Below, piece after piece: positions 38,071-62,305 of a DNA stretch of 64,000 nucleotides. The position numbers and the translations under genes are program-made. Every line of letters begins with the position of its first letter. The stretch's first letter is position 1. Source of the DNA: Escherichia phage vB_EcoM-P3322; the sequence record PV191315.1; one strand, given 5' to 3'. A model generated the notes under the pieces. It searched no databases and had not been told where the DNA came from. It worked only from the letters and a program-made list of their open reading frames with translations.

Positions 38071-38102
38071 TCTTATTGATTTATAAAGAGTTTTTATAAA
38101 AG

Positions 38103-38132
38103 AAAAGGGAACCTTTGCGGGTTCCCTTTTTT
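38103..38132. terminator. bidirectional rho-independent terminator between convergent early/middle and tail modules
   Basis: GGGAACC-loop-GGTTCCC hairpin flanked by AAAA upstream and TTTTTT downstream, between plus-strand stop (38070) and minus-strand stop (38134). Confidence 0.7.
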
Positions 38133-38133
38133 A

Positions 38134-40809: not shown

Positions 40810-40820
40810 TTAAACCCTCC

Positions 40821-40849
40821 ATAAAAAGAAAGCCCCTTTCGGGGCTTCT
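40821..40849 (-). terminator. intercistronic terminator/attenuator (minus strand)
   Basis: On minus strand GAAGCCCCGAAAGGGGCTTTC hairpin followed by TTTTTAT, then RBS of next gene. Confidence 0.45.
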
Positions 40850-40850
40850 G

Positions 40851-42875: not shown

Positions 42876-42911
42876 TTATCTCTCCTATCATTAGACCATT
42901 CTATTGGAAGA

Positions 42912-42930
42912 AGAGGGGGAATCCCCCTCT
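42912..42930 (-). terminator. intercistronic hairpin (AGAGGGGGA / TCCCCCTCT)
   Basis: GC-rich inverted repeat between tailspike-like and collagen-like fibre genes; no clear U-tract. Confidence 0.3.
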
Positions 42931-42936
42931 ATTCCA

Positions 42937-45993: not shown

Positions 45994-46329
45994 TTACCCC
46001 TTATTCTGTGTACGTTTAACTATGTCATCTAGCATCATTTGGATAGTCGCATTCTTGAGGTCCATAATCTTTTCAATTTTTTGCTCAAGGGTGTTGTTAT
46101 TTGCCATTAATGTAGAGTTAATTTGATTTAGCATCTGGGTAAGTTCGGCTTTAGTTGCGTAAGTTGATTCAACAAAGACCAACTTCTTCTCTAGCTCTCG
46201 ACTTTTCTCCTCCATTTCCTCAAGATCAGAGCCGAATTTATCCATTTTTTGTTTGAAAAAGAACCAGATGACTCCGATTAAAGGGATTATTGCATCCTTT
46301 GCAAGTCCCCATGCTTCTTGAAATTCCAT
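45994..46329 (-). CDS. small protein with N-terminal TM helix and coiled coil
   Basis: Track ORF 111 aa; IIPLIGVIWFFF then heptad-rich charged region. Confidence 0.45.
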   Translation of the reverse strand: MEFQEAWGLAKDAIIPLIGVIWFFFKQKMDKFGSDLEEMEEKSRELEKKLVFVESTYATKAELTQMLNQINSTLMANNNTLEQKIEKIMDLKNATIQMMLDDIVKRTQNKG

Positions 46330-46338
46330 AATGATCCC

Positions 46339-46884
46339 TTATTCCGTTGGTAATGTAGGCCAATCTATAGTGTAAGGATAGTCTTTTTGAAGCGGAACAC
46401 GGTTTAGTTTAACCACATAAACTTGAAGATTTTTAAGATAAGCTAATTCATCTTCAGTAGCCATTTCTAAATCTTTAGCATACTGTAAAGGTGTTATAAG
46501 TGCTACCGCTGTTTCTTGTAAAGAGCGAATTTTTGCACTAACTTGTGTCATCAACTCTTCACGGGAATACTCTTTATCCTTAAGAGTCAAAGTTTCTAAA
46601 TCCAGAACCTTGTTTCTAATATCCTCAAAAGTGTCTATATTAAAGTCCACTTGTGCTATAGAAAGATCTTCAGGGCAAAGTAATGTAGGATCAGTGTTCC
46701 AAAACACAATACGATTTTGATCGTCAAAAACGACTTTCATTTTATCGTTATTGAATTCTGTGCTACGTAAATCATACCAATCGTAACCTTGATCGCAACG
46801 AAGAAAAAGAATGTTCTCTACTTCTACCAATTCTTTTAGTTCGGGATCTTCGGGAATATATCTTTTAAAATTTGTAAATATCAT
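46339..46884 (-). CDS. tail fibre assembly/chaperone-like protein (tentative)
   Basis: 181 aa immediately after a fibre gene; call by position only. Confidence 0.3.
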   Translation of the reverse strand: MIFTNFKRYIPEDPELKELVEVENILFLRCDQGYDWYDLRSTEFNNDKMKVVFDDQNRIVFWNTDPTLLCPEDLSIAQVDFNIDTFEDIRNKVLDLETLTLKDKEYSREELMTQVSAKIRSLQETAVALITPLQYAKDLEMATEDELAYLKNLQVYVVKLNRVPLQKDYPYTIDWPTLPTE

Positions 46885-47946
46885 TTAGCCTCCGATATCG
46901 TACCAGTTTCCGTTAACGTTGCGCTGGAGGCGTTTGAAATAAACCCCACCGATGTTATCCGCAGAACTACGTCCTGTTTCCTGTACAATAATACCAGAAA
47001 GAACATAACCAGAAGAACAGATATAAGTCCAAGAAACCTCGTTCCCTGGTGGATAATACACACCTTGGCTAGTATAACGAATATCTCTTACAAAGGTTCC
47101 GTTAGCATAATTGTAGTTGTTTGTAATCTGACTTTGATGATTACTTTCTACATTGTTTATACGGGAAGAGAGGTTGCTGTTAACACTATTCAGGTTGTTT
47201 TGAACAGTGTTAATATTCGTCTGCAATGTGTTCTGAAGAGAAGTCAAACGAGAATTCAGATAATCTAAGCGAACTAAAGCATTTCCGTTAGAAGTATCTT
47301 GTCCACTGTTTGATCTTGGACTGTCTATTAGAACATAACCTGCATCATATAAACGAACACCTGCTGATACACTACCTGTGCTAGGATTTCTACGATAGAT
47401 GTAAAGCTGACCTCCGCTTTGATACTCGGCAGAAATCTCACCATTTGTTTGTCCTGCAAAGTTTTTGAAGAACAGTGTTGCAGGATCTGTTGTGGAAGTA
47501 CCGTTAACATAAACATCACCACCATAAATAGCACCACCCGCATCACGTTTTACCAACACGTTTGGTGTTACTGTTGAACTAGTAGCATCTGTAATGTTTG
47601 CTGACAAGTGATTATGACTGTTATCTTGAACTTGGATAGATAAAGTAACTTCTTTGTTACCGTTCCAAGTGGCCTCACCAGTAGCATCACCCGCCATTGT
47701 AATCTTAGTTCCCACTAAAGGCAAGTAGGTATTAGGTAAAGTTGGAAGAAAATCATCCACCAAATAGCGAATCCATAAACCGATATTATTAAGAATCCAG
47801 TTCATCTCTTCGCAAGTCATGATTTGACCATAATCCATACCAATTGTGCGGATGGTTTCTTTAGGTCTAATTTTGTTTGTGTTTAAAGTTCCTGGGAGCG
47901 TTACAGTTTGTGTAGCCCAGTCAGGATAATATATTGGCTTCGCCAT
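46885..47946 (-). CDS. tail fibre protein
   Basis: 353 aa; Asn/Ser/Thr/Gly-rich with repetitive N..N..S tracts; follows baseplate-like genes. Confidence 0.4.
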   Translation of the reverse strand: MAKPIYYPDWATQTVTLPGTLNTNKIRPKETIRTIGMDYGQIMTCEEMNWILNNIGLWIRYLVDDFLPTLPNTYLPLVGTKITMAGDATGEATWNGNKEVTLSIQVQDNSHNHLSANITDATSSTVTPNVLVKRDAGGAIYGGDVYVNGTSTTDPATLFFKNFAGQTNGEISAEYQSGGQLYIYRRNPSTGSVSAGVRLYDAGYVLIDSPRSNSGQDTSNGNALVRLDYLNSRLTSLQNTLQTNINTVQNNLNSVNSNLSSRINNVESNHQSQITNNYNYANGTFVRDIRYTSQGVYYPPGNEVSWTYICSSGYVLSGIIVQETGRSSADNIGGVYFKRLQRNVNGNWYDIGG

Positions 47947-47955
47947 TTAAACTCC

Positions 47956-48585
47956 TTAATCTATTTGCTTGAGAAGCGTACACATGCGTCCTGTTTCATC
48001 CCCAGTAGATTCCATGTACAGGGAACCTAAACCACCAATACCATGAGGCGGTTTGGTAGCATAATAAGAACTAAAACCAAAAGCTGATCCTGCTTTTGCT
48101 CCAAGACGGTAGCTACTAATAATAGGGAAAACACTTAGCAACTGCTCTAAAGCTTGATCAGATTGAAGACACAGGTTGTAGAAAAACACATCAAAGGTTT
48201 TATTCAAACCTACGTAAGTATTAAGCGTTTCACGTTCTGTTCCTGTGAAACGGGCGAAGATATCAATTATGTCACCACGAGTCCCCGACGAGGCTACGCG
48301 GTAAGCCCTGATTTTTAATATTGTTCTATACTCTTCATCATCAGAGCCATTACGTTCGATCCCCATTTCTTCTCCTAAGATATCTAGGTATTTGCCTGTG
48401 GCTGTGGAGATCAAGCGGTGTTTAGCAAGATAGATCATTGCCTGATCTATCTTTTGCTTTTCACTGGATACGATGTAGAGGAGCTTGACAATGTTAGGAG
48501 AAGATTTAAAATCTTCAATCAGAAGGTTTTTAACGTCTTCATTGATACTGGCCCAAGTTGTTACATGGTCAACACTCACTGCCAT
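47956..48585 (-). CDS. baseplate protein, gpI/YmfQ-like (tentative)
   Basis: 209 aa; YLDILGEEMGIERNGSDDEEYRTILK resembles the family signature. Confidence 0.35.
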   Translation of the reverse strand: MAVSVDHVTTWASINEDVKNLLIEDFKSSPNIVKLLYIVSSEKQKIDQAMIYLAKHRLISTATGKYLDILGEEMGIERNGSDDEEYRTILKIRAYRVASSGTRGDIIDIFARFTGTERETLNTYVGLNKTFDVFFYNLCLQSDQALEQLLSVFPIISSYRLGAKAGSAFGFSSYYATKPPHGIGGLGSLYMESTGDETGRMCTLLKQID

Positions 48586-48587
48586 TT

Positions 48588-50075
48588 TTACACTCCATAC
48601 TCGTAAGAAATGTTATCAAGGTCAAAAGAAGGGACAACATTATAAGCAGGAACTATATTATTCTCTGTATATTTACTGTCATCCTCAGTATTAAGTTTAA
48701 CATAAACACGAAGAGAAGTCAAGCGTCCAAAAGCAAGTGCTGCATAAATAACACCTTTGATTTGATCGTTCGTTACTGAAGAACCTAACTCAAAGTAAGC
48801 TTGTAGGTTTTGTAGAGCTTCTACGATGTTTTGTTTTTCTGTTCCACTTAAAGTTGTTCCGTTGACAGTTTGATAAACAAGTTTTACGGAATACATAGCA
48901 GAAGCACCAGGAGAGAAGCGAATAATTTCTTGTCCTCCGTCTTCTGTTGTAACTGTTATGTTAGTTGTTCCGTGTGTCAAAGTGTTGATTGGCTTGGTTT
49001 TATAGATAACATTTGCAATTTCTTCTGCACTGCCACCATAAACTATAGTCTGGAAAGTCATAGCTGGAGCATGTTCTTGATCATGTAATGTAGGGTTATC
49101 ATAAATCTTCACCTTAGTAACACCATCTGTAAGTAGCAGAGCTTTCACAATAGCTGCTCGTGTCCCTGCGTTAGCTTCGTCAACGTTGTCATTGAAACGA
49201 GAGCGGAATTCTGCGTCTGTCTCAACATCTCGACCAGGGGAAAATGAATAGAAGTTACCACTATCAAGATAACCTGTAAAGGTAGAAGATATCCCTGTAA
49301 TAGACTCCACACCAACAGGATTGTATCCTTTCTCTGCTGCAACTACCGGAATCTCACTCCACTTGGTTCCAACCGGAACACTAGCATAAAATTTAATAGG
49401 AGTTACCAGCCCCACTGGAGTATCACTGGTTAAAGAAGTAAAACCAATTGATAAGTTACCTGAATCAGAAAATACAAGACTACGATCAGCTTCTGTTAAA
49501 TTCGCCTTGATAAAAGTTTCAAGATCGGTTATAAATGTAGAAGAACCAGGTGCAAGTGTTTTACTGTTTAGTCCTCCATCCACCGCACTTTGTGCATAAA
49601 AAGTAATATTTGGAACACCTGTAGCAGTTGCATTAGCACGAGAGATTTGATAAGCTGCAATCTTAGCATTCAACATAGTTGGTGTGCTAACATAGTAGTT
49701 CATATCACTATCAGAGTTGAAGTAAATATCCGTGCCTAACTCATAAGTCCAAGCTGCTTTGTTATTACTCTTAACATATGCATAACCTGTACTTGCTGCT
49801 GCCCCTGCTCGATAGAAACCGCGTTTAGAAAAGATTTCGTCAAGATAAATACCTTCTGCACCATCCAGTGTTTGAGTATTATAAACACCTTGCATACCTT
49901 CCCACAATGTGTAATCTGTGTATGCAATTATTCTAAACAGTTGCCCGATCACAGTATCTTCCGAAGTGGCTGCATCTGCACCAAATGTGTTTTTTACTGC
50001 TGTCATGTAGTTGTTTAAAACATCGTCAAAAGTCGGGATTACAAATCCCGCATCTGTCAAACCATATTCGTCCAT
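48588..50075 (-). CDS. baseplate J-like protein (tentative)
   Basis: 495 aa directly upstream of gpI-like gene; N-terminal region of the J type. Confidence 0.35.
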   Translation of the reverse strand: MDEYGLTDAGFVIPTFDDVLNNYMTAVKNTFGADAATSEDTVIGQLFRIIAYTDYTLWEGMQGVYNTQTLDGAEGIYLDEIFSKRGFYRAGAAASTGYAYVKSNNKAAWTYELGTDIYFNSDSDMNYYVSTPTMLNAKIAAYQISRANATATGVPNITFYAQSAVDGGLNSKTLAPGSSTFITDLETFIKANLTEADRSLVFSDSGNLSIGFTSLTSDTPVGLVTPIKFYASVPVGTKWSEIPVVAAEKGYNPVGVESITGISSTFTGYLDSGNFYSFSPGRDVETDAEFRSRFNDNVDEANAGTRAAIVKALLLTDGVTKVKIYDNPTLHDQEHAPAMTFQTIVYGGSAEEIANVIYKTKPINTLTHGTTNITVTTEDGGQEIIRFSPGASAMYSVKLVYQTVNGTTLSGTEKQNIVEALQNLQAYFELGSSVTNDQIKGVIYAALAFGRLTSLRVYVKLNTEDDSKYTENNIVPAYNVVPSFDLDNISYEYGV

Positions 50076-50317
50076 TAGTCATCCTCTTTGGTAGATTGTG
50101 ATCTGCCCCAACGTAAATCAATAAGATTTTTCATGAGGCGAGAAGGGGTTATCATGAAAACAAAAGCCCAACCCATCCATTCAGGAATTTCTTTTTCTAT
50201 TCCTAAAAAGATAAACATGCCTGTCATAACCGACATGCCTACAGCGTTCCAGACTTTCGTAGAACTGACTTTATTATCAGGATATGTACAGAACATACCT
50301 ATTAAAAATTTTCTCAT
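50075..50317 (-). CDS. small membrane protein (2 predicted TM), holin-like topology
   Basis: 80 aa; hydrophobic segments MSVMTGMFIFLGI and WMGWAFVFMI; charged C-terminus. Confidence 0.4.
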   Translation of the reverse strand: MRKFLIGMFCTYPDNKVSSTKVWNAVGMSVMTGMFIFLGIEKEIPEWMGWAFVFMITPSRLMKNLIDLRWGRSQSTKEDD

Positions 50318-50622
50318 AGTGCGTTCTCATTACTTTTTAAATCACGATATACAGCTAATTCCCCAAGGTCTACAAAACCCGCTGAATGCACAAGTACAGC
50401 AGCACTAAGACTAATGGCAGTAGTACCTGGGGCAATATCAGCAGGTAGGGAATACGCCCTTTGCGTCTCCTTATCATAGATAACCTTATACCCACCCAAA
50501 TCCACACCTACTGAGAAGTAAACAACCTCAGATTGTTTAACTCCAAAGTGACGGGCTACTGCTTGTTTATTGGTTAAGATTCCGGTTGAACCTTTACCAC
50601 CTTGGGAGAACATTTCGTTCAT
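50314..50622 (-). CDS. hypothetical protein
   Basis: Track ORF 102 aa; SD AAGAGG; preceded by leader hairpin. Confidence 0.5.
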   Translation of the reverse strand: MNEMFSQGGKGSTGILTNKQAVARHFGVKQSEVVYFSVGVDLGGYKVIYDKETQRAYSLPADIAPGTTAISLSAAVLVHSAGFVDLGELAVYRDLKSNENAL

Positions 50623-50644
50623 AACAACCTCTTTGTTTTTCTAA

Positions 50645-50670
50645 GTAAGCCCCTCCAAAGAGGGGCTTAC
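50645..50670 (-). promoter_or_regulatory. 5' leader stem-loop (11-bp stem) just upstream of RBS of 50314..50622
   Basis: GTAAGCCCCTC-CAAA-GAGGGGCTTAC inverted repeat; no U-tract; same position relative to RBS as the TerC leader hairpin. Confidence 0.3.
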
Positions 50671-50849
50671 AGTGGTAGTGACAACACTTTGAGTTAGTAC
50701 GATAGTAACTAAAGACAAGATTAACCCTGCTACGATATGTTTTCATCATTTTATCACATGGCGATGATATGCGCTTGCAGGACATAGCTTGTGTGGATTG
50801 TGCTGAATGCAATTTTGGCCTATTGTCATCAGTAAGAAAGCATTCATTC

Positions 50850-50873
50850 CCCCGCCGAAGCGGGGTTTTTGTT
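50850..50873 (-). terminator. hairpin terminator after 50872..53160 (A-tract/hairpin/T-tract, possibly bidirectional)
   Basis: CCCCGC-CGAA-GCGGGG stem; T5 on plus side, A-run on the other; related stem at 62283-62298. Confidence 0.4.
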
Positions 50874-53160
50874 ATATAACTGAAGTAACAACACCATTGA
50901 TTGTTGCTTTTATCTGTGCAGTTGGATGAGGTCTAACATTAATGGTGCCTCTATTACTTGATGCCCCAATAAATACATCATACCCTGAAGTTGCGTTGAA
51001 ATCCGAGAACAGGCTAACCGGGCTTGCATTCTGAGTGGCAGGCACAGCAGATGAGGTTCCACAACGCTTCAGGATACCTGGTGTTGCTAAGGATGATGCA
51101 GCATCGCGACGGCAAGTAACGTCAAGATCAAATGTGTATCCATCAAATCCGTATTGTGTTGAATCCTGATAAAGTTTCATTACTTCTACTGTTGAACCTC
51201 CGGCAGAAGAGTTATGGTTGAGTCCTGTGAACTTCATTCTGGTAAATCGATTGTCCTGCACAACTGTATCGAATGTCTTTTCAATTTTAAGACTGCTTAA
51301 ACCGTATACACCGTTCAGAAGTATAGGGTTCTGGACACGCGTACTCATGCTTATATCAATAGTCGGCGCGTTATACAGGTCAATCCTGTCACCAATGGAA
51401 CCTGAACGATCTTTGATATTTACGGCAATAGAAAATGTAGCATCATTATTATCAATTTTTATTGTCGATCTCTTATCTACCTCTATTGTCATAGATGGAG
51501 ATGACTCTGCTACTGAAGTTCCTGTTATTGTCAAAGAACGTGGATATTTAGTTACATATATTTTTGCTTCTTCGCTATAGTTTCCCGCCACAAAGGTTGC
51601 CTGGCTGTCTCCTATGCGTATTTCACCAGTTTCAACAGTTGCAGCAATGACAGACGTTCCAATAATCGGAACCTCTACTTTAGTTCCGGAAGGGAAATCA
51701 GATGTCATTGCTCGATCAAGAGTAATGACGTTTCCCGATATTGCTGTAATTCTTCGAGTCTCAACACCGCCAGTCGAGTTTGTAAAAGCAATCTCAAACC
51801 AGGTATCAAAACCAGAGGCATCTGCAACAGTAACAGTGTTGTCATTGATAGATGCTGGCGATGTCAGTGTGGTGCTCATACCCTCAATAGACAAAGTACA
51901 TTGGGCTTTGTCACTACTACCAATGTAACCCATCAACTTGATGGAGTTATTACGAACTCGAACACCGTACTTAGTTCTGGTGGAGCCGTTTTTTGTTCCC
52001 TGTGAGTGTCCATACCAATACATAACAAGATGTAAAAGATCGTAGTTGCTGATACGGTGATCAATTGATTTATTACGAACAGTAGCATAAGGCGCAGTAT
52101 AGATAGCTCTGGCTGCTGCGCTGGCACCATTATTAGAAATGTTTCCATTTACGGTGAAACCTTCAACTGTTTGGTGCCAGTGGAGACGATCTCTGCTCCT
52201 GTCACGCGGATCAATTCCGACATGGTGCAGTGAAATGTCAGATGACGTTGACATGATTATTGTTGCGTCATTTCCGGCACCGGAAAAAGTAAATCCTCGA
52301 CGATCAACATCAAGGTTGATTGTATTTGATAGATAGCTTCCGGAAGGGAATGATAACTTAGATATTATACTGTTAGCCCTTGCAACCCTGTTTGCTTCAT
52401 CTATAGCAACTGAGTTTTCATCTGCGTCTGCACCGCCAAAACCAAATTCATCATACCCCATGCTCTCTCTTACAATTAAGTTGGCATTAAACCCGCCCGC
52501 TATTGGGATTGAGTATGTATCATCATTTTGTGTTGTTGATATTAACCATTCTGACTCAGATCTTATTCCATGTTTGTTTTTATATGTTTTTACAATCATC
52601 CCTTCGCTGAATGTGGCACCATCCCCTGATGGCAGAATTCCAGATATTAACTCTGAAACGCTATTAAATATTATAGTTGTGTTTTTATTAACCCACAATC
52701 TCAAAGAAGCATCGCCAACACTAACCCACGCACTAGGACCAACGCCACCAGTTGATGTAGGGGTTGATTTAGGTGGTACATCTTTAGGGAAACCAGACCC
52801 CCATGTGTAGCACTGAGCACCCGCTATGTACCAGACAGCATCAGTTACACTGCCCACTGTAGCCCCTTCTTCAAAACTACCATCAACAAGAGTTAACCCA
52901 GCCTCGGCAAGACTACGACGCCACTGTTCACGATCATTAAGAAGATTGTTATTCAACTCTTCCTGAACAGTATTACCATTTGAAGATTGTATGAAATCTG
53001 CTCCATCTGTATCTTTCAACTGGGTGGCTAAAACCACCCCAGTGTCAGTAAGAAAGTTGGAAACTGTGCTTTTAACAGTCTTATCAGGTTGGTCTAAAAC
53101 CAGGTAATCAGAATCATTAACTTTTGATGTTTCGGGTAAATTAGTAATTGTAGTTGACAT
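50872..53160 (-). CDS. tail fibre/tailspike-like protein (762 aa)
   Basis: Large beta-rich Ser/Thr/Asn/Gly-rich protein in the tail module. Confidence 0.4.
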   Translation of the reverse strand: MSTTITNLPETSKVNDSDYLVLDQPDKTVKSTVSNFLTDTGVVLATQLKDTDGADFIQSSNGNTVQEELNNNLLNDREQWRRSLAEAGLTLVDGSFEEGATVGSVTDAVWYIAGAQCYTWGSGFPKDVPPKSTPTSTGGVGPSAWVSVGDASLRLWVNKNTTIIFNSVSELISGILPSGDGATFSEGMIVKTYKNKHGIRSESEWLISTTQNDDTYSIPIAGGFNANLIVRESMGYDEFGFGGADADENSVAIDEANRVARANSIISKLSFPSGSYLSNTINLDVDRRGFTFSGAGNDATIIMSTSSDISLHHVGIDPRDRSRDRLHWHQTVEGFTVNGNISNNGASAAARAIYTAPYATVRNKSIDHRISNYDLLHLVMYWYGHSQGTKNGSTRTKYGVRVRNNSIKLMGYIGSSDKAQCTLSIEGMSTTLTSPASINDNTVTVADASGFDTWFEIAFTNSTGGVETRRITAISGNVITLDRAMTSDFPSGTKVEVPIIGTSVIAATVETGEIRIGDSQATFVAGNYSEEAKIYVTKYPRSLTITGTSVAESSPSMTIEVDKRSTIKIDNNDATFSIAVNIKDRSGSIGDRIDLYNAPTIDISMSTRVQNPILLNGVYGLSSLKIEKTFDTVVQDNRFTRMKFTGLNHNSSAGGSTVEVMKLYQDSTQYGFDGYTFDLDVTCRRDAASSLATPGILKRCGTSSAVPATQNASPVSLFSDFNATSGYDVFIGASSNRGTINVRPHPTAQIKATINGVVTSVI

Positions 53161-53168
53161 TTTTACTC

Positions 53169-55322
53169 CTATATATAAAATTTTTGTGTTGTTACTAAAT
53201 CTTCTCCAGATTTAGTAGCTAATGTAATTCCACTTATGGTAGCAATCTCAACATTTGCTTGTTTAAGAGTGATATCTTGCAAATAACAATTCAAAGGCAC
53301 ATTACCCATATAGAAAACTTGGGATTGAGAATTAACTACCGTGATGGAATCATGCATTATTTGAGGATAGGCCCATATATATTGTGTAAGCCCATTGAAC
53401 TTATTGGCGTTCAACACTATATTACCTATAATCATTTTCCAAAGATACGTGCGGTAGTTTGATTCAGGATCGAAGCCATACAAAGGTGCAAGAGTAGCAT
53501 CTGGAACAAAACCCGAAAGATAGTGAATATCAGAATATTCAAAACCTAATTTTTCATGTGGTATGGTAATTGCATCGAATGCTTTCATCATTTTACCTTC
53601 CAGAAGCCAGTCGTAACACTCTGAACAGTAAAAATCAAAAGTTTCAGGAATGTAGTAATCAGACGGAAAGTTAACTTTCTCCATCAAACCGTTGCCAATA
53701 ATTGACGGTAAGAACGGAAGCAATGTTACTTTAGCTCCTGGATAAGTTGCTCTAGTGTCTGTTGCAAACTTTGTAACTCTTAATCCTAGTTTACGAGACA
53801 AAAATGCATAGTATTCGTCAAACGGTGTTCCTGTTTTATAATTATCTATTGTTCCTGCATCTTGTGCAAATAAGCCTGTTTCTGTATTGAATGCTAGTTT
53901 GGTAGTGTAATCATATATACAAGGCATTTTACTTGCTGTATTATACCACCACCAAGGTTCACCAATTTGAATGACGACTGGAATATTGTTAGTTTGAGAA
54001 ATAGATGCTATTTTGTTAATAACATTTTGCAAATATTCCATACCTTCATCAATAGTTGGAGACAACACGTAACTAGGAGGCTTATACCCTGTTGCTGCAA
54101 GAGCATCGTTCCAATCATGCTGGACCCATTCAACAGGACAAACTGTGCTCATCAACTCAAAACTCAAAGAGTTCATTATTGTGTAGCCATTTTCATTAGC
54201 TATAGAATGGAAACTGTTAAGCCAAGCTTCTGTAGCCGGATTCAGGAAAACAGATCTATTTAAAGCCCAAGATGTTCCGTTCCATGAGAACTCATAATAG
54301 TGAGACATTCCGTTGTAATGGTTAATCATTCCACGATAACCTAGTGCATATGTATTATAAATAACTCTCTCTGGAGTCAGGTTATACATATCATCATAAG
54401 ATGTGCACATGCGAATATCATGTTCAGGCTGGACAAGGTTGCTGACTTTCATCATACTGTAACCAGAAGTAGGTTCAAGAAGAGTGAAAGTAAACCAAGC
54501 CTCTTGACTGGCAATAGGTACAATCTCTTCTATTTCTTCATACCTTGCTGTAATCAAAGAGAAGAAAATATTATCTACAGCATTCATATCCAAAGGAATA
54601 TCATTATTAGGGCCAGAAAAGATATTACCAAAATCTAACTTTATTGTGGCTGTTTTACCATCTTCTGAAATATCTGAAGCGTAGAATCCTAAACTGACAT
54701 AATGAACACTTTTATCCAGGAGAGTTACAGTCAAAGTCGGCACCAAAGGTTCTTCTTTAAAACCTGGCATGTTTTGACTAATTTCCATTTTAAACCAAAG
54801 TTTCTCTGAACTTAAATCTGTGTGAGGCAAATACCCAACACCTTTATGGTCATATTTGTCAACTGTGCTCCAGATAACCCCTGCCAAACCTGCTGTTGTT
54901 CTGTTTACAAATCTTGCAGTAAAAGAGTCTCCATGAGATACAATAGAACAACTTTCCGTTGCTTGAGAATCTATTGTCCAATACATAGGAGAGAACATTT
55001 TAACGTCTTTTGTAGTCCAAGTTATTGGAGTAGTGTTTTCTTGGATAGTAGTTATAATACAATTGATGGTTGTTTCAACCATCATGTTATTTTGACTAAT
55101 CCCTGAAACTTGGAGGGAGAAGTTAAGATCTATTGAGTTCTTTGGTCGTTCAAATACTTCAACCACAATAGTAGCAGAATCAGCATCATCAGGGAACACA
55201 AGTGTTCCCGATTTTGCAATATAATCTCTACCAGCGACTGCTGTTCCGTCAACAGTCGTGTAGTTAAATGAACTCGCATTTACTCTCTTGTCTCGCGTGA
55301 CAGTAAATATAGCTTGTTTCAT
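53169..55322 (-). CDS. large virion structural protein (717 aa)
   Basis: Track ORF with strong coding continuity in structural operon; no motif recognised. Confidence 0.45.
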   Translation of the reverse strand: MKQAIFTVTRDKRVNASSFNYTTVDGTAVAGRDYIAKSGTLVFPDDADSATIVVEVFERPKNSIDLNFSLQVSGISQNNMMVETTINCIITTIQENTTPITWTTKDVKMFSPMYWTIDSQATESCSIVSHGDSFTARFVNRTTAGLAGVIWSTVDKYDHKGVGYLPHTDLSSEKLWFKMEISQNMPGFKEEPLVPTLTVTLLDKSVHYVSLGFYASDISEDGKTATIKLDFGNIFSGPNNDIPLDMNAVDNIFFSLITARYEEIEEIVPIASQEAWFTFTLLEPTSGYSMMKVSNLVQPEHDIRMCTSYDDMYNLTPERVIYNTYALGYRGMINHYNGMSHYYEFSWNGTSWALNRSVFLNPATEAWLNSFHSIANENGYTIMNSLSFELMSTVCPVEWVQHDWNDALAATGYKPPSYVLSPTIDEGMEYLQNVINKIASISQTNNIPVVIQIGEPWWWYNTASKMPCIYDYTTKLAFNTETGLFAQDAGTIDNYKTGTPFDEYYAFLSRKLGLRVTKFATDTRATYPGAKVTLLPFLPSIIGNGLMEKVNFPSDYYIPETFDFYCSECYDWLLEGKMMKAFDAITIPHEKLGFEYSDIHYLSGFVPDATLAPLYGFDPESNYRTYLWKMIIGNIVLNANKFNGLTQYIWAYPQIMHDSITVVNSQSQVFYMGNVPLNCYLQDITLKQANVEIATISGITLATKSGEDLVTTQKFYI

Positions 55323-55330
55323 TTTACCCC

Positions 55331-58207
55331 TTACTCGGTAACGTCCACACTAATGTTTGCCATTGTCAAAACAGTAAGTGCAGGAATATTGCTCGAATCC
55401 AAAACAGGTAATGCATTTTGGGGATTAAGTTTTTTGTATAAAGCATACAACCCAAAACCACGTAACAACTCTCCGGCGTGGAAGCCAAAGAAGACTCCGT
55501 TATCACTGTCTGGTCTAGGGGCAGCACTCCAACAACCATTCATAACGTGATTAGGACCAAGAACAATATAATTTTCCTGAATAAGTTCAAAACAGCGATC
55601 TGCTACTATTTTAATGTTAGGAATTTCTGAATCATATCCAGCCATCCCCATTATAGCACATCCCGCCATAAAGAGCGCAGACATGTGACTTGTAAAGTCA
55701 TCTACAGGCGCAGCCACTTCTCCGTTGGGATAAAATATTGTTGGTGTTCTTCCTTCGTTGTTATCTTGGAACCACTTCAGATAATTGATCCAGTTTTTAC
55801 AAACTGTTAAAAGTTTTGCAGGAACTTCTGCTCCTCGTTGCTTCAGTTCGTATACTGTATGACACGCACAGAAGAATGCTCGTGCTTCATAACCATCCCA
55901 AGCTTTATCGTTCCAATGATACATTGTGAACTCATTCTTGTTTCCGTATTTATGAGCATCCCAACGATCCCAAACATAAGCTTGTGCCATTGGCCCAGGC
56001 ATCACAGGGGCAAACTTATTATAAAACCACATTTGTGAATCATATAAAAAGTCTATACTGTTGTTCATACGAACCCAATCAATATCTCTCCCTTTAAAAC
56101 AATATAAGGATGGGTATTGATAACCTGGGTAAGGAATACCACGCCAACCGTCATATAAGGCTGTGTTAGGATCACTGATATTGGAAAATGGAATGATTCC
56201 TGGAGTATAATTCAAACTGTTAAGTTTGTAGTCCAGTATTGTACAATCTCCAAGTTTTGCTGTATAAGGATTTTCAGATGAAACTGTAACCCTGAAATAC
56301 ATTGTGTAATCATCACCAGTGGCTGAAGAATACAAAGATGGGATATCGTTAACGCAATAAAAATCGATTGCCCCTGTCAAGCCATTTGCAGGTTCAGAAT
56401 CCAATGCAATATTGATCTGATCAACAGCAGTCAGGTTTATTGACGAAGGTTTTGCCTCTGTGTCTTCGTGATTAGGTTGCCAAGTACTTAATTTGAAATC
56501 GGCAGGACTTAAAGCTTTAGTAACCCATGCAGAATTTGTTTTTTCTAACATGGCCCACCATCTCCAACCTGCGGAATCCGTAATAGTGATGTTAAAATCA
56601 TCTGCGTATGAACGATACGTAATAGATTTTAAATTGGCTGTTTTAGTTGGTGTTAACCAAAACCCAACAGTAAAACCACCATCTGAATCCATATTAGCAG
56701 AAACTATCTGATCACTATTTGTCCCAGCAATACCAGTTGCATATTTATATTGTATCACAGTATTGCTTCCCCAGTCAACAATAATTCTGGGTTCAGCAAT
56801 AATATATACACCACCTCCAGGAGGTTCGGTGCGCATAAAACTAGATAAAGGTATATCCATCTTAGTCATATTAGCTGCACCAAGAGGTAAGCCACAACGA
56901 TATGTCACTGTGTCTGTTTCACTCTTAGTTTTGCTTAATTCTAGCTCTGGACGGAAAAGAACACCTTCCCCTGCATCATCTACACCTTGAAACTCAATAC
57001 GCAGTTTTGAATTCTGATCTACTCTGAACCAAACTGCCTGTTGTTCTAGAGTTGTTTGTGCTGCAACATCTTGGCGAATTACTGTGTATCCTAACTCGTC
57101 ACGAGAATATTTAGGTATTGCTGTAGATGGGTATGAGTAATCATACGAGATACCATCTGTAAAAGGAATTATTGCTGTCGTAGATCTACGGAAGAATTTA
57201 TCAAACATATCGATGTTTGAGTAGTCTTGACACAACAATAAAGAAGATTGCCAGCAAAGCCAGTATTTTCTCTCTCCTGTGATTTGATACATCAAGTAGT
57301 TTGCATCACACCACCACGTTTCAGCATCGGAAGCATTATCTTGATAGCCTAACTCTACCGGAACGTTTACAGGACGGTTATGCCACATCTCATTACGCTT
57401 AAGCAGATATCCACCGTGTTCTACAGGATTGCATGTAGCGTAGTTGAATTTATAGTCCCCGTTCACAGAAGCATTTTTAAGTTGCACTGTTCCATATTCT
57501 GCAAAGCTATGACCAGTAGATAAAATGTTACCATCCCAATCAACTTTACGTCCTAGACGGTCTATAATCCATTCAACGTCCCACTGATCTCCATATTCTT
57601 TCCAGTTGGTTGAACCATCTGGGTTAGTTGCATAAACTGTTGCGTTAACGGAGTTCCAACCAAGATTGCCATTGAAAGCAAACCAAGCTTTATCTAAGTA
57701 TTCCCCCCAATGCGGTGCACCTTTAGGAATAACAGTCCTTCCGTTAATCCAAGTCATCATGCTACCTTTGAACCCGCCGTGCGTAGGATACCCATCATCT
57801 GTGAGAGGGTAATGTGCTAAACGTGGTTCTTTACCATTGATGATCCAATTGGGACGATATTTAGCTGGAGGATCAGGAATAGGTTGGCCCCCGAAGAAGT
57901 GATCTATATAGGCTTGCCAATACTTCTCGGCAGATTCAAGATATTTTTTATCCCCTGTAGCCAAATATGCATAAGCAAAACCAGTGATAAGCACAGATTG
58001 ACCTTCGGTAGTAGCGTCACCGTTTGGTTGCCCTTCCTGCGCTGTCCAGTTAATAAAGTGTCTGTTGTTCGCCAATACGTTTTGTGGGTTGATAATGTAA
58101 TGCTGAACCGTAGGATCTATGGTAAGCCCAGTATTTCTTTCCAAAAACTGAACCAACCCTTCAATCAACTGAAACGTGTTGTCAATATTGTGCTTAACTC
58201 TTGACAT
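55331..58207 (-). CDS. large virion structural protein (958 aa), aromatic-rich, possible carbohydrate-active domain
   Basis: Trp/Tyr/Asn-rich composition typical of glycan-binding or glycosidase-like tail proteins; unverified. Confidence 0.45.
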   Translation of the reverse strand: MSRVKHNIDNTFQLIEGLVQFLERNTGLTIDPTVQHYIINPQNVLANNRHFINWTAQEGQPNGDATTEGQSVLITGFAYAYLATGDKKYLESAEKYWQAYIDHFFGGQPIPDPPAKYRPNWIINGKEPRLAHYPLTDDGYPTHGGFKGSMMTWINGRTVIPKGAPHWGEYLDKAWFAFNGNLGWNSVNATVYATNPDGSTNWKEYGDQWDVEWIIDRLGRKVDWDGNILSTGHSFAEYGTVQLKNASVNGDYKFNYATCNPVEHGGYLLKRNEMWHNRPVNVPVELGYQDNASDAETWWCDANYLMYQITGERKYWLCWQSSLLLCQDYSNIDMFDKFFRRSTTAIIPFTDGISYDYSYPSTAIPKYSRDELGYTVIRQDVAAQTTLEQQAVWFRVDQNSKLRIEFQGVDDAGEGVLFRPELELSKTKSETDTVTYRCGLPLGAANMTKMDIPLSSFMRTEPPGGGVYIIAEPRIIVDWGSNTVIQYKYATGIAGTNSDQIVSANMDSDGGFTVGFWLTPTKTANLKSITYRSYADDFNITITDSAGWRWWAMLEKTNSAWVTKALSPADFKLSTWQPNHEDTEAKPSSINLTAVDQINIALDSEPANGLTGAIDFYCVNDIPSLYSSATGDDYTMYFRVTVSSENPYTAKLGDCTILDYKLNSLNYTPGIIPFSNISDPNTALYDGWRGIPYPGYQYPSLYCFKGRDIDWVRMNNSIDFLYDSQMWFYNKFAPVMPGPMAQAYVWDRWDAHKYGNKNEFTMYHWNDKAWDGYEARAFFCACHTVYELKQRGAEVPAKLLTVCKNWINYLKWFQDNNEGRTPTIFYPNGEVAAPVDDFTSHMSALFMAGCAIMGMAGYDSEIPNIKIVADRCFELIQENYIVLGPNHVMNGCWSAAPRPDSDNGVFFGFHAGELLRGFGLYALYKKLNPQNALPVLDSSNIPALTVLTMANISVDVTE

Positions 58208-62179: not shown

Positions 62180-62238
62180 GATAACCTCGTGGTAATGATA
62201 ATGCCAAAAGGAAGATGCAAGATCTTCCCATATTGATT

Positions 62239-62268
62239 ATTGTAACACATATAGAAACTTCGTGTCAA
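62239..62268 (-). promoter_or_regulatory. candidate sigma70-type promoter inside tail module (TTGACA-N18-TACAAT on minus strand)
   Basis: Hexamers read on minus strand just downstream of the tape-measure terminator; inverted repeat GGAAGATCTTGCATCTTCC in the leader. Confidence 0.35.
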
Positions 62269-62276
62269 GGGAAACG

Positions 62277-62298
62277 AAAAAACCCCGCCGAAGCGAGG
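62277..62298 (-). terminator. rho-independent terminator after tape-measure gene (minus strand)
   Basis: On minus strand CCUCGC-UUCG-GCGGGG (one G-U pair) followed by UUUUUU. Confidence 0.5.
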
Positions 62299-62305
62299 TA
62301 TTTTA

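What the first reader, a model, noticed from the sequence alone, without database searches (positions are those of the whole stretch)
50623..50871. 250-bp non-coding island inside the tail module with two hairpins
The only long non-coding gap in the otherwise tightly coupled structural operon. It holds a terminator-like hairpin flanked by an A-tract and a T-tract (50850-50873), an extended -10-like TGATAAAAT on the minus strand, and an 11-bp stem leader hairpin (50645-50670). It could encode a small RNA or be a regulated restart point.
Basis: seen in the sequence. Interest (0 to 1): 0.45.

Follow-up and report, generated by a model that had tools for sequence, protein, structure and literature searches.

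The report
Leftover joint behind a swapped tailspike
The 249-base gap is a real non-coding patch in a phage tail operon, best read as a recombination joint left by swapping of the tailspike's receptor-binding part, bounded by two conserved terminator-type hairpins; it is an ordinary feature of a kind already described.

Summary
Bases 50623-50871 are a 249-nt gap on the minus-strand tail operon of a Phapecoctavirus-like phage. It contains an 11-bp hairpin (hp1, 50645-50670), a 6-bp GC hairpin (hp2, 50850-50865) and TGATAAAAT (50756-50748).

hp2's T-tract is on the antisense strand. On the operon strand there is only an upstream A5 tract.

Comparison explains the island:
- Only the first ~154 codons of the upstream 762-aa tailspike are shared with other phapecoctaviruses, so the gap is the 3' junction of a swapped receptor-binding cassette.
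- hp2 plus the stop codon is 25/25 identical to the 3' flank of a Kuttervirus tailspike. It fits the published 'motif three' terminator/recombination hotspot.
- hp1 belongs to a covarying class of inter-tailspike terminators found just upstream of the tailspike anchor-domain gene in three phage groups.
- The ~180 nt between the hairpins is hitch-hiked flank. It holds a 19-codon mini-ORF (start lost here), a relic of an extended -10 spacer from BUCT618-like phages, and a frameshifted hydrophobic ORF.
- Relatives show nested breakpoints and gaps of roughly 50 to 580 nt.

No Rfam family, tRNA or protein family matches. A small RNA or a restart promoter is possible but unsupported. Interest is low to moderate.

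The parts
50872..52698 (-). Receptor-binding (C-terminal, ~610 aa) part of the 762-aa tailspike; this is the swapped cassette whose 3' end abuts the island
   Evidence: Only query positions 1828-2289 (window 52699-53160, the gene's 5' end) match other phapecoctaviruses. The rest matches only Ro121c4YLVW. The Tail_spike_N domain lies at residues 93-150.
50850..50871 (-). hp2: CCCCGC-UUCG-GCGGGG on the sense strand, preceded by CAAAAA (50866-50871). Conserved terminator-type hairpin directly after the tailspike stop codon. The U-tract is missing on the sense strand; T5 is present on the antisense strand.
   Evidence: It is 25/25 identical, including the stop codon, to the 3' flank of Kuttervirus EP75 ORF167, where TTTTTATTT follows. 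It is present after different tailspikes in PD114, TSP7_1, U1G and L070-L073.
50814..50849 (-). Variable spacer ('class A'), carrying a decayed Shine-Dalgarno sequence (AATAGG here, AAGAGG in relatives)
   Evidence: Alignments. Class A is shared with PD114, L071, L072 and L081. A shorter class B occurs in TSP7_1, U1G, UP17, W22 and L070/L073.
50754..50813 (-). Relic of a 19-codon mini-ORF (M-x-F-x-T-I-H-T-N-Y-V-L-Q-A-H-V-I-A-M, then TGA TAA). In this window the start codon is ATT.
   Evidence: of the 15 copies compared, 9 keep an ATG at the start and 8 of those also carry a Shine-Dalgarno-like motif (U1G has AAATGTG). The start is lost in the window, Ro121c4 and UP17. The ORF is cut in EF1-1 and rejoined in EcG1/ZCKP1. 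L081 adds a further intact copy with Shine-Dalgarno.
50733..50757 (-). GTGATAAAATGATGAAAACATATCG: holds the extended -10-like TGATAAAAT (50756-50748). Relic of the short spacer upstream of a baseplate-J-like gene of BUCT618-like temperate phages.
   Evidence: BUCT618 reads GTGATATAATGATTAAAAATTACCGGGGGTGGCATG.
50641..50742 (-). Hydrophobic reading frame KHIVAGLILSLVTIVLTQSVVTTTVSPSLEGLT*, with no start codon. It is separated from the ATGs by a 1-nt frameshift relative to an intact 67-aa ORF in metagenome contig L071.
   Evidence: There are no homologues in PHROGs, Pfam, the 5.8-billion-protein collection or phage genomes beyond the same island.
50645..50670 (-). hp1: GUAAGCCCCUC-UUUG-GAGGGGCUUAC. 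Member of the conserved inter-tailspike terminator-type class, 22 nt upstream of the ATG.
   Evidence: 5 of 7 pairs change on both sides across 14 distinct sequences. ARNold annotates the homologue in PhAPEC5 as a terminator.
50620..50644 (-). UUAGAAAAACAAAGAGGUUGUUAUG: conserved tail, Shine-Dalgarno sequence (AAGAGG, 50633-50628) and start codon of the anchor-domain gene
   Evidence: The TAGAAAAACAAAGAGG block is shared by most of the hairpin-bearing loci from Phapecocta-, Gamaleya- and Kuttervirus-like contigs, with minor variants.
50314..50622 (-). 102-aa ORF, a tailspike N-terminal anchor domain only (truncated tailspike). It is the resident downstream homology arm.
   Evidence: PHROG tailspike families match residues 1-94 to the N-termini of 550-1160-aa profiles. 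Alignment to EP75 and PhAPEC5 tailspikes, and an in-frame deletion of residues 10-62 in UP17 and W22.

Best explanation
The island is a recombination joint: the downstream boundary of an exchangeable tailspike receptor-binding cassette. It is not a gene.

Shown:
1. The receptor-binding part of the upstream tailspike is foreign to the genus backbone.
2. hp2 is the conserved 'stop codon + A-tract + CCCCGCUUCGGCGGGG' motif that follows tailspike genes in Kuttervirus, Gamaleyavirus and Justusliebigvirus.
3. hp1 is the conserved terminator-type hairpin that precedes the tailspike anchor-domain gene in the same groups.
4. The ~180 nt in between is a patchwork of flanks carried along by earlier exchanges. 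It contains a mini-ORF that has lost its start here, a spacer relic from BUCT618-like temperate phages, and a frameshifted hydrophobic ORF.
5. Relatives break homology at hp1, inside the mini-ORF, at its start, or at hp2.

Inferred:
- The two hairpins and the near-identical core act as short homology patches where crossovers resolve when a new receptor-binding domain is acquired.
- In this phage the operon transcript reads through both hairpins, because each has only 2 U in the 8 nt that follow it and essential baseplate genes lie downstream.
- At most the hairpins act as weak attenuators or mRNA-stabilising stem-loops.
- The sense-strand UUCG loop of hp2 (and UUCG/UACG loops in many hp1 homologues) suggests the hairpins evolved as RNA elements of the operon strand. 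The antisense T5 of hp2 is then the leftover A-tract of a formerly bidirectional terminator.
For: - Cassette boundary. Only window 52699-53160 of the tailspike matches other phapecoctaviruses. Homology of relatives to the window ends at about 50666-50670, 50780, 50795, 50807 or 50870.
- hp2. It is 25/25 identical to the EP75 and L034 tailspike 3' flanks, which carry a proper T-tract. Pas et al. 2023 describe a 20-nt terminator-like 'motif three' starting 0-19 nt after receptor-binding-protein stop codons in Gamaleya-, Kutter- and Justusliebigviruses, and propose it as a recombination hotspot.
- hp1. A GC-rich stem-loop lies 17-28 nt (mostly 21-28 nt) before the anchor-domain ATG in 22 of 36 IMG/VR loci, with at least 7 different stem sequences. 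Five of 7 pairs change on both sides, and 0 of 500 shuffles reach that. The homologue is annotated as a terminator in PhAPEC5.
- Hitch-hiking.
  - The same hp2 + mini-ORF block sits after unrelated tailspikes in Jedunavirus-like contigs, whereas JD001 itself has a 3-nt junction there.
  - It also occurs in BUCT618-like contigs L072 and L081, in L071 and in the N4-like phage U1G.
- Decay.
  - The mini-ORF start and Shine-Dalgarno sequence are lost in the window.
  - hp2 is broken in ukendt, where the gap is 580 nt.
  - A truncated N4 gp63 homologue is fused to the core in EcG1.
- Not a known gene. No tRNA, no Rfam family above threshold, no protein family, and no E. coli genome match.
- The downstream 102-aa ORF is itself a truncated tailspike, and it is partly deleted in two relatives.
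Against: - The core 50673-50790 is 96-99% identical in all ten relatives. In ukendt and U1G it is better conserved than the adjacent coding sequence. That could reflect function rather than recent spread.
- Nine of the 15 copies compared keep the mini-ORF's ATG, and three different upstream junction classes each supply a Shine-Dalgarno-like motif. L081 adds another intact copy. This hints at selection on the mini-ORF in other phages.
- An extended -10 is unlikely by chance (0.09 expected), and it descends from a perfect TGATATAAT.
- No transcript data exist for this phage, so read-through, attenuation and restart are all inferred.
- I could not see the published logo of 'motif three', so its identity with hp2 rests on position and taxa only.
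Confidence: 0.7

Rival explanations
1. The island is a working terminator-promoter restart module. hp2 ends or attenuates the tailspike transcript. The extended -10 TGATAAAAT (50756-50748) starts a new transcript near 50741. hp1 then acts as a 5'-UTR stem-loop or attenuator in front of the anchor-domain and baseplate genes.
For: - The extended -10 is rare (0.09 expected per 249 nt).
- It is invariant in every copy of the element.
- It is homologous to a perfect TGATATAAT 19 nt before a baseplate gene in BUCT618.
- The same phage has a clear terminator + TTGACA-N18-TACAAT + UTR-hairpin module at 62180-62305.
Against: - There is no -35 element. The scan finds no sigma-70 site with 9 or more of 12 matches on the minus strand of the gap.
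- hp2 lacks a sense-strand U-tract.
- Phapecoctaviruses without the core (nieznany, tuntematon, B15 and others) have only hp1 between the upstream gene and the same downstream genes, so a restart is not needed.
- EF1-1 and ukendt show breakpoints and decay around the site.
Confidence: 0.2
2. A sense-strand small RNA of about 95-100 nt is made from the extended -10 to hp1 (about 50741 to 50641).
For: - A promoter-like site and a strong stem-loop lie at a suitable spacing.
- The segment is 96-99% identical in all relatives, including the N4-like phage U1G.
- The island is significantly structured.
Against: - No Rfam match reaches its threshold.
- hp1 has only UUAG after its stem.
- The Jedunavirus-like and BUCT618-like copies of the element lack this segment entirely.
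- In L071 the segment lies elsewhere, as part of an ORF.
- No compensatory changes were found outside the two hairpins.
Confidence: 0.07
3. An antisense (+ strand) RNA ends at hp2, which acts as a Rho-independent terminator. This RNA would overlap the mini-ORF, in an Ibs/Sib-like type I toxin-antitoxin layout, or would shield the tailspike gene from antisense transcription.
For: - On the + strand, hp2 followed by TTTTTGTT heads the terminator-like list for 46000-56000 (six G-C pairs).
- A 9/12 sigma-70-like site lies at 50678-50706 on the + strand.
- The mini-ORF is 19 codons, like the ibs genes (own knowledge).
Against: - The stable UUCG loop is on the minus strand.
- The + strand T-tract is absent in U1G and weak in L072.
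- 9/12 promoter-like sites occur at the rate seen in shuffled sequence (29 found against 29.3 expected).
- The peptide is only moderately hydrophobic, and the mini-ORF is dead in this window.
Confidence: 0.04
4. The island encodes a very small protein in this phage: the mini-ORF, the 72-aa frame at 50594-50812, or the hydrophobic frame.
For: - One frame is open across the whole island.
- EcG1 annotates a 147-aa ORF running through it.
- Conservative V/I/L/A/T substitutions separate L071 from the window in the hydrophobic frame.
Against: - In the window the mini-ORF starts with ATT and follows AATAGG.
- The hydrophobic frame is preceded by TGA TGA and has no start codon.
- Substitutions in the 72-aa frame are almost all non-synonymous.
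- No homologues were found in any library.
- The EcG1 ORF is a truncated N4 gp63 homologue fused to the island by a 1-nt insertion in hp1.
Confidence: 0.03

Closest known systems
'Motif three' of Pas et al. 2023 (Virol J 20:174, PMC10408124): a conserved 20-nt terminator-like sequence downstream of tailspike/receptor-binding-protein genes, proposed as a recombination hotspot
   Same: The position matches: non-coding, starting 0-19 nt after the stop codon. It is terminator-like. It occurs in Gamaleya-, Kutter- and Justusliebigviruses, the same groups in which I find hp2. The proposed role is also the same, a downstream homology patch for exchange of the receptor-binding domain.
   Different: - Here the sense-strand U-tract is gone.
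- The motif is followed by ~180 nt of additional shared flank and a second hairpin.
- Phapecoctavirus and Jedunavirus-like phages were not among the genera reported to carry the motif.
- The published logo could not be read, so sequence identity is unverified.
PeSLs (promoter-early stem-loops) of T4-like phages (Arbiol et al. 2010, PMC2839356; Comeau et al. 2014, PMC4122927)
   Same: Both are small composite terminator/promoter motifs that flank variable genes, and both serve as points of exchange between otherwise unrelated sequences.
   Different: - PeSLs contain a strong sigma-70 promoter, are repeated many times per genome, and lie in early hyperplastic regions.
- This island has at best an extended -10 with no -35 element.
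- Its core is single-copy in the window.
- It lies in a late tail operon of a non-T4 phage.
Inter-tailspike intrinsic terminators of N4-like (Gamaleyavirus) and Ackermannviridae tailspike clusters, for example the ARNold-predicted terminator between PhAPEC5 genes 68 and 67
   Same: hp1 is homologous to them in sequence and position. Each has a GC stem-loop, then a U-rich tail, then UAGAAAAACAAAGAGG and the ATG of the anchor domain.
   Different: - In the window the stem is lengthened to 11 bp at the expense of the U-tract.
- The loop is flipped relative to its closest relatives.
- The gene it precedes is only a 102-aa stump.
Morons of lambdoid phages (promoter - small gene - terminator inserted in a late operon; own knowledge: Juhala et al. 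2000, Hendrix et al. 2000)
   Same: The layout is similar: a hairpin, a promoter-like site, a small hydrophobic ORF and a terminator hairpin, inserted between two tail genes.
   Different: The ORF is not intact here and has no homologues. The promoter is unproven. The block travels with tailspike cassettes and is not an independent insertion.

Membership tests
Rho-independent (intrinsic) terminator, operon (minus) strand | GC-rich stem-loop | tested here: met
   hp2 has 6 G-C pairs and a UUCG loop, -12.7 kcal/mol. hp1 has 11 bp, about -20 kcal/mol.
Rho-independent (intrinsic) terminator, operon (minus) strand | U-rich tract immediately 3' of the stem | tested here: not met
   hp2 is followed by GAAUGAAU (2 U in 8). 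hp1 is followed by UUAGAAAA (2 U in 8). Homologues in other phages do have the tract, for example UUUUUAUUU in EP75 and UUUUUUUAG in L015.
Rho-independent terminator, antisense (+) strand, hp2 only | Stem-loop followed by a T-tract, and a transcript to terminate | tested here: inconclusive
   The stem plus TTTTTGTT is present. No convincing + strand promoter exists, and the T-tract is not conserved in U1G or L072.
Receptor-binding-protein downstream 'motif three' (Pas et al. 2023) | About 20 nt, non-coding, starting 0-19 nt after the stop codon, predicted to be a terminator | tested here: met
   The hp2 stem starts 6 nt after the TAA, and its A-tract starts directly after it.
Receptor-binding-protein downstream 'motif three' (Pas et al. 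2023) | Conserved across Gamaleya-, Kutter- and Justusliebigvirus receptor-binding-protein genes | tested here: met
   The same hairpin follows tailspikes in EP75 and L034 (Kuttervirus), in U1G (Gamaleyavirus), and in PD114 and W22 (Justusliebigvirus).
Receptor-binding-protein downstream 'motif three' (Pas et al. 2023) | Sequence identity with the published consensus logo | not testable with these tools
   The alignment and logo are held only as images.
PeSL (T4-like promoter-early stem-loop) | Strong sigma-70 promoter joined to the stem-loop | tested here: not met
   No minus-strand site with 9 or more of 12 matches lies in the gap. There is only an extended -10 about 95 nt from hp2.
PeSL (T4-like promoter-early stem-loop) | Many dispersed copies flanking variable genes in one genome | tested here: not met
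   The core is single-copy in the 64-kb window. The hairpin motif occurs at 4 sites. Only the 64-kb window was available, not the whole genome.
Moron | An intact accessory ORF between its own promoter and terminator | tested here: not met
   Both candidate ORFs lack a start codon in the window, and no homologues were found.
Any Rfam RNA family, tRNA or tmRNA | Covariance-model score at or above the gathering threshold, or an ARAGORN hit | tested here: not met
   The best Rfam score is 17.5 bits against a threshold of 65, and all E-values are 0.1 or higher. ARAGORN finds no tRNA or tmRNA gene.
Type I toxin-antitoxin (Ibs/Sib-like) | A translatable small hydrophobic toxin ORF, fully overlapped by an antisense RNA with its own promoter and terminator | tested here: not met
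   The ORF has ATT in place of ATG and a decayed Shine-Dalgarno sequence here. The peptide is MAFSTIHTNYVLQAHVIAM-like and only moderately hydrophobic. The antisense promoter is no better than chance.

The most novel reading that the evidence does not exclude
The invariant ~60-nt heart of the island may be a functional micro-cassette that travels with tailspike receptor-binding modules. It consists of the 19-codon mini-ORF with its double stop codon, overlapping the extended -10. Such copies occur in at least four unrelated phage lineages: Stephanstirmvirinae, the N4-like U1G, Jedunavirus-like phages and BUCT618-like phages. The cassette could be a translated leader or micro-protein, or a portable promoter that restores expression of genes downstream of a newly inserted tailspike. 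On this reading, the copy in this window is a decaying one.
Probability: 0.12. Interest if true: 0.55.

Novelty: new member of a known kind. Interest (0 to 1): 0.25.

Why it matters
The island is a well-preserved worked example of how tailspike specificity modules move between unrelated phages. Here the receptor-binding domain arrives with its terminator hairpin and a trail of donor flank. Crossovers resolve at short conserved hairpins or in the anchor-domain gene. For phage engineering it marks natural, tolerated junction points for swapping receptor-binding domains in phapecoctaviruses. It does not open a new biological question by itself.

Tried and rejected
- Known RNA genes. Rfam at a permissive E-value and tRNA/tmRNA search found nothing.
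- Host origin. There is no match in 5,426 complete E. coli genomes for the island or for the L071 version. Two pattern scans of 185,579 species genomes also found nothing.
- Protein coding. PHROGs and Pfam on all candidate frames, tblastn against phages and the 5.8-billion-protein search with the intact L071 ORF gave no family.
- A 17-mer scan of IMG/VR returned 22 contigs sharing a 21-mer with 50711-50731. These proved to be one family of coding sequences with no further similarity, so the match is chance.
- Native 3' end of the EcG1 147-aa gene. I tested whether the island is that gene's own 3' end. It is not. That gene is an N4 gp63 homologue whose profile stops matching at residue 84, and gp63 downstream regions in Gamaleyaviruses are unrelated.
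- Shared 3' end with EP75. I tested whether the tailspike C-terminus is homologous to EP75 ORF167, given the shared 25 nt. Only the N-terminal linker domain aligns.
- Attenuator. By eye I found no upstream anti-terminator complement to hp1.

Full report
**Context**

The window is a Phapecoctavirus-like (Stephanstirmvirinae) myovirus. The region around the finding is 98% identical to Escherichia phage vB_EcoM-Ro121c4YLVW.

The tail and baseplate genes lie on the minus strand from 38134 to beyond 63925. They are packed with gaps of about 0-12 nt, with these exceptions: three 41-63-nt gaps, one of 126 nt (62180-62305), and the 249-nt gap at 50623-50871.

Upstream on the operon strand is a 762-aa tailspike (53160-50872) with a Tail_spike_N domain. 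Downstream is a 102-aa ORF (50622-50314) and then an 80-aa membrane protein. RefSeq leaves the homologous stretch of Ro121c4YLVW unannotated.

**The observation**

- hp1 is an 11-bp stem with a 4-nt loop at 50645-50670.
- hp2 is six G-C pairs with a 4-nt loop at 50850-50865, followed by TTTTTG on the + strand.
- TGATAAAAT lies at 50756-50748 on the minus strand.

The island folds better than every one of 200 shuffles on both strands (z -3.4 and -4.0). The hairpin motif gives 5 matches (4 sites) in the window against 0.02 expected. The extended -10 pattern is expected only 0.09 times in a stretch of this size.

One correction is needed. Because the operon is on the minus strand, hp2 has its run of A upstream and GAAUGAAU downstream. 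It is therefore a textbook terminator only for antisense transcription. Its extra-stable UUCG loop, however, is on the operon strand.

**What the hairpins are**

I fetched 36 viral-contig loci that encode relatives of the 102-aa protein.
- Twenty-two of them have a GC-rich stem-loop 17-28 nt (mostly 21-28 nt) upstream of the ATG, as does the window. A U-rich tail and a near-invariant UAGAAAAACAAAGAGG follow in most.
- The stems differ: CCCCUC/GAGGGG, CCCCGC/GCGGGG, GGGUCAC/GUGACC, CCCCAUC/GAUGGGG, GCGGGGC/GCCCUGC and others.
- On 14 distinct sequences, 5 of 7 pairs change on both sides, and no shuffle or slid register comes close.
- A caveat applies: I picked these sequences by requiring six paired positions, so the percentage paired is partly built in.

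The PhAPEC5 homologue is annotated as an ARNold terminator lying between its two tailspike genes. hp1 is therefore a member of a conserved class of inter-tailspike terminators shared by Phapecocta-, Gamaleya-, Ithaca- and Kutterviruses.

hp2 together with the stop codon and the A-tract (TAACAAAAACCCCGCTTCGGCGGGG) is 25/25 identical to the 3' flank of Kuttervirus EP75 ORF167 and of another Kuttervirus tailspike. In those phages it is followed by a good T-tract. In one N4-like contig (L014) the hp2 stem sits in the hp1 position.

This matches in position, predicted function and host genera the 20-nt 'motif three' of Pas et al. 2023. [quoted passage not shown] I could not see their logo.

**Why the island is there**

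Only the first ~154 codons of the 762-aa tailspike are shared with other phapecoctaviruses. The receptor-binding part is found only in this phage and in Ro121c4YLVW. A published comparison links the Ro121c4YLVW tailspike to tailspikes of Agtrevirus, Kuttervirus and Kayfunavirus phages. The island is therefore the 3' junction of a swapped cassette.

Relatives lose homology to the window at nested points:
- just past hp1 (about 50666-50670, many phapecoctaviruses and all Kutter- and N4-like hits);
- at about 50780 (EF1-1);
- at about 50795 (ZCKP1, EcG1);
- at about 50807 (TSP7_1, UP17, W22, ukendt, U1G);
- at 50870 (PD114, PD06).

Their gaps at this position range from roughly 50-75 nt to 580 nt.

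In ukendt hp2 is mutated and lies far from any gene. In EcG1 a truncated homologue of N4 gp63 (phrog_5211) is fused to the island by a 1-nt insertion in hp1.

**The middle of the island**

Comparison with metagenome and viral contigs resolves it into leftovers.

(a) A 19-codon ORF ending TGA TAA. Nine of the 15 copies compared keep an ATG at the start, and eight of those also have a Shine-Dalgarno-like motif. Three different upstream junction classes occur. In the window and in Ro121c4YLVW the start is ATT and the Shine-Dalgarno sequence is AATAGG. L081 adds a further intact copy.

(b) The 25 nt that include TGATAAAAT. These are homologous to the 35-nt spacer upstream of a 388-aa baseplate-J-like gene of the temperate phage BUCT618. 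There the site reads TGATATAAT, a perfect extended -10, 19 nt before the ATG.
- Contigs L072 and L081 are BUCT618-like phages with a tailspike plus hp2 plus mini-ORF inserted in front of that spacer.
- The Jedunavirus-like contigs L070 and L073 carry the same block plus the first 24 codons of the J-like gene. JD001 itself has a 3-nt junction at that place.

(c) A hydrophobic frame (50742-50641) with no start codon. It is homologous to an intact 67-aa ORF behind a tailspike in contig L071 but offset by a 1-nt indel. That ORF has no homologue anywhere else.

The core 50673-50790 is 96-99% identical in all ten relatives, and divergence elsewhere in the locus is patchy. I read this as recent spread with tailspike cassettes, but selection cannot be excluded.

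**Mechanism**

Shown: mosaic structure, conserved hairpin classes, foreign receptor-binding module, and decay of the small ORFs.

Inferred:
- The hairpins and the core act as the downstream homology arm for cassette exchange. The upstream arm is the conserved tailspike N-terminus.
- Operon transcription reads through both hairpins here, because both lack U-tracts and baseplate genes follow.
- The antisense T5 of hp2 is the remnant of a bidirectional terminator.

A true restart module in this phage looks different. At 62305-62180 there is CCUCGCUUCGGCGGGG-U6, then TTGACA-N18-TACAAT, then a UTR hairpin and a Shine-Dalgarno sequence.

**Rivals**

A weak restart promoter, a sense small RNA ending at hp1, an antisense RNA ending at hp2, and a micro-protein are all weighed in their own sections of this report. 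None is excluded without transcript data, and none has positive support beyond motif matches.

**Verdict**

This is a real but ordinary feature: a new and well-resolved example of the conserved terminator-type boundaries of tailspike cassettes, with hitch-hiked relics in between. The only open curiosity is the widely carried mini-ORF and extended -10 core.

Noticed in passing
window 50656-50659 (hp1 loop): The 4-nt loop is inverted between very close relatives. On the sense strand it reads UUUG in the window and EcG1, and CAAA in Ro121c4YLVW, PD114, TSP7_1, U1G, UP17, W22 and ZCKP1. The stems are unchanged. This is a small inversion across a hairpin.
   Followed up: partly
window 50314-50622 (-): The 102-aa 'tail protein' is only the N-terminal anchor domain (residues 1-95) of full-length tailspikes of Kuttervirus EP75 and Gamaleyavirus PhAPEC5. 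UP17 and W22 carry an in-frame deletion of residues 10-62. It may be a dispensable stump of a lost second tailspike.
   Followed up: partly
window 62180-62305 (-): A canonical terminator (CCTCGCTTCGGCGGGG followed by T6, almost the hp2 sequence) is followed by TTGACA-N18-TACAAT, a 5'-UTR hairpin and a Shine-Dalgarno sequence, in front of the 233-aa gene. This is a likely real restart point in the tail module.
   Followed up: no
L005 3997-4440 (phage vB_Ec-G1, EcG1_105) and L079 (ZCKP1): A truncated homologue of N4 gp63 (phrog_5211, 89% aa identity to Gamaleyaviruses) sits upstream of the island in two phapecoctaviruses. This is a further sign of exchange with N4-like phages. The annotated 147-aa EcG1 protein is a fusion with island sequence.
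   Followed up: partly
L002 (phage U1G) 4830-5402: The N4-like phage U1G has the same arrangement as the window: a 107-aa tailspike stump preceded by a 249-nt gap that is 92% identical to the island. A podovirus and a myovirus therefore share this block.
   Followed up: yes
window 48485-48512 and 53154-53181 (+): Two 11/12 matches to TTGACA-N16-TAAAAT lie on the antisense strand inside or at the edge of minus-strand tail genes. They are unrelated to each other, and their significance is unknown.
   Followed up: no
window 40810-40850, 42876-42936, 38071-38133 (-): Each of the three large distal fibre/spike genes is followed by a canonical sense-strand intrinsic terminator (GC stem followed by a U-tract). 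Attenuators between receptor-binding genes thus appear to be the rule in this module.
   Followed up: no
L071 53-256 (-): A metagenome contig has an intact 67-aa hydrophobic ORF behind a 769-aa tailspike. It is followed by a weak hp1-like hairpin, hp2 and the mini-ORF, a circular permutation of the window's order that suggests tandem units. No homologues exist elsewhere.
   Followed up: partly
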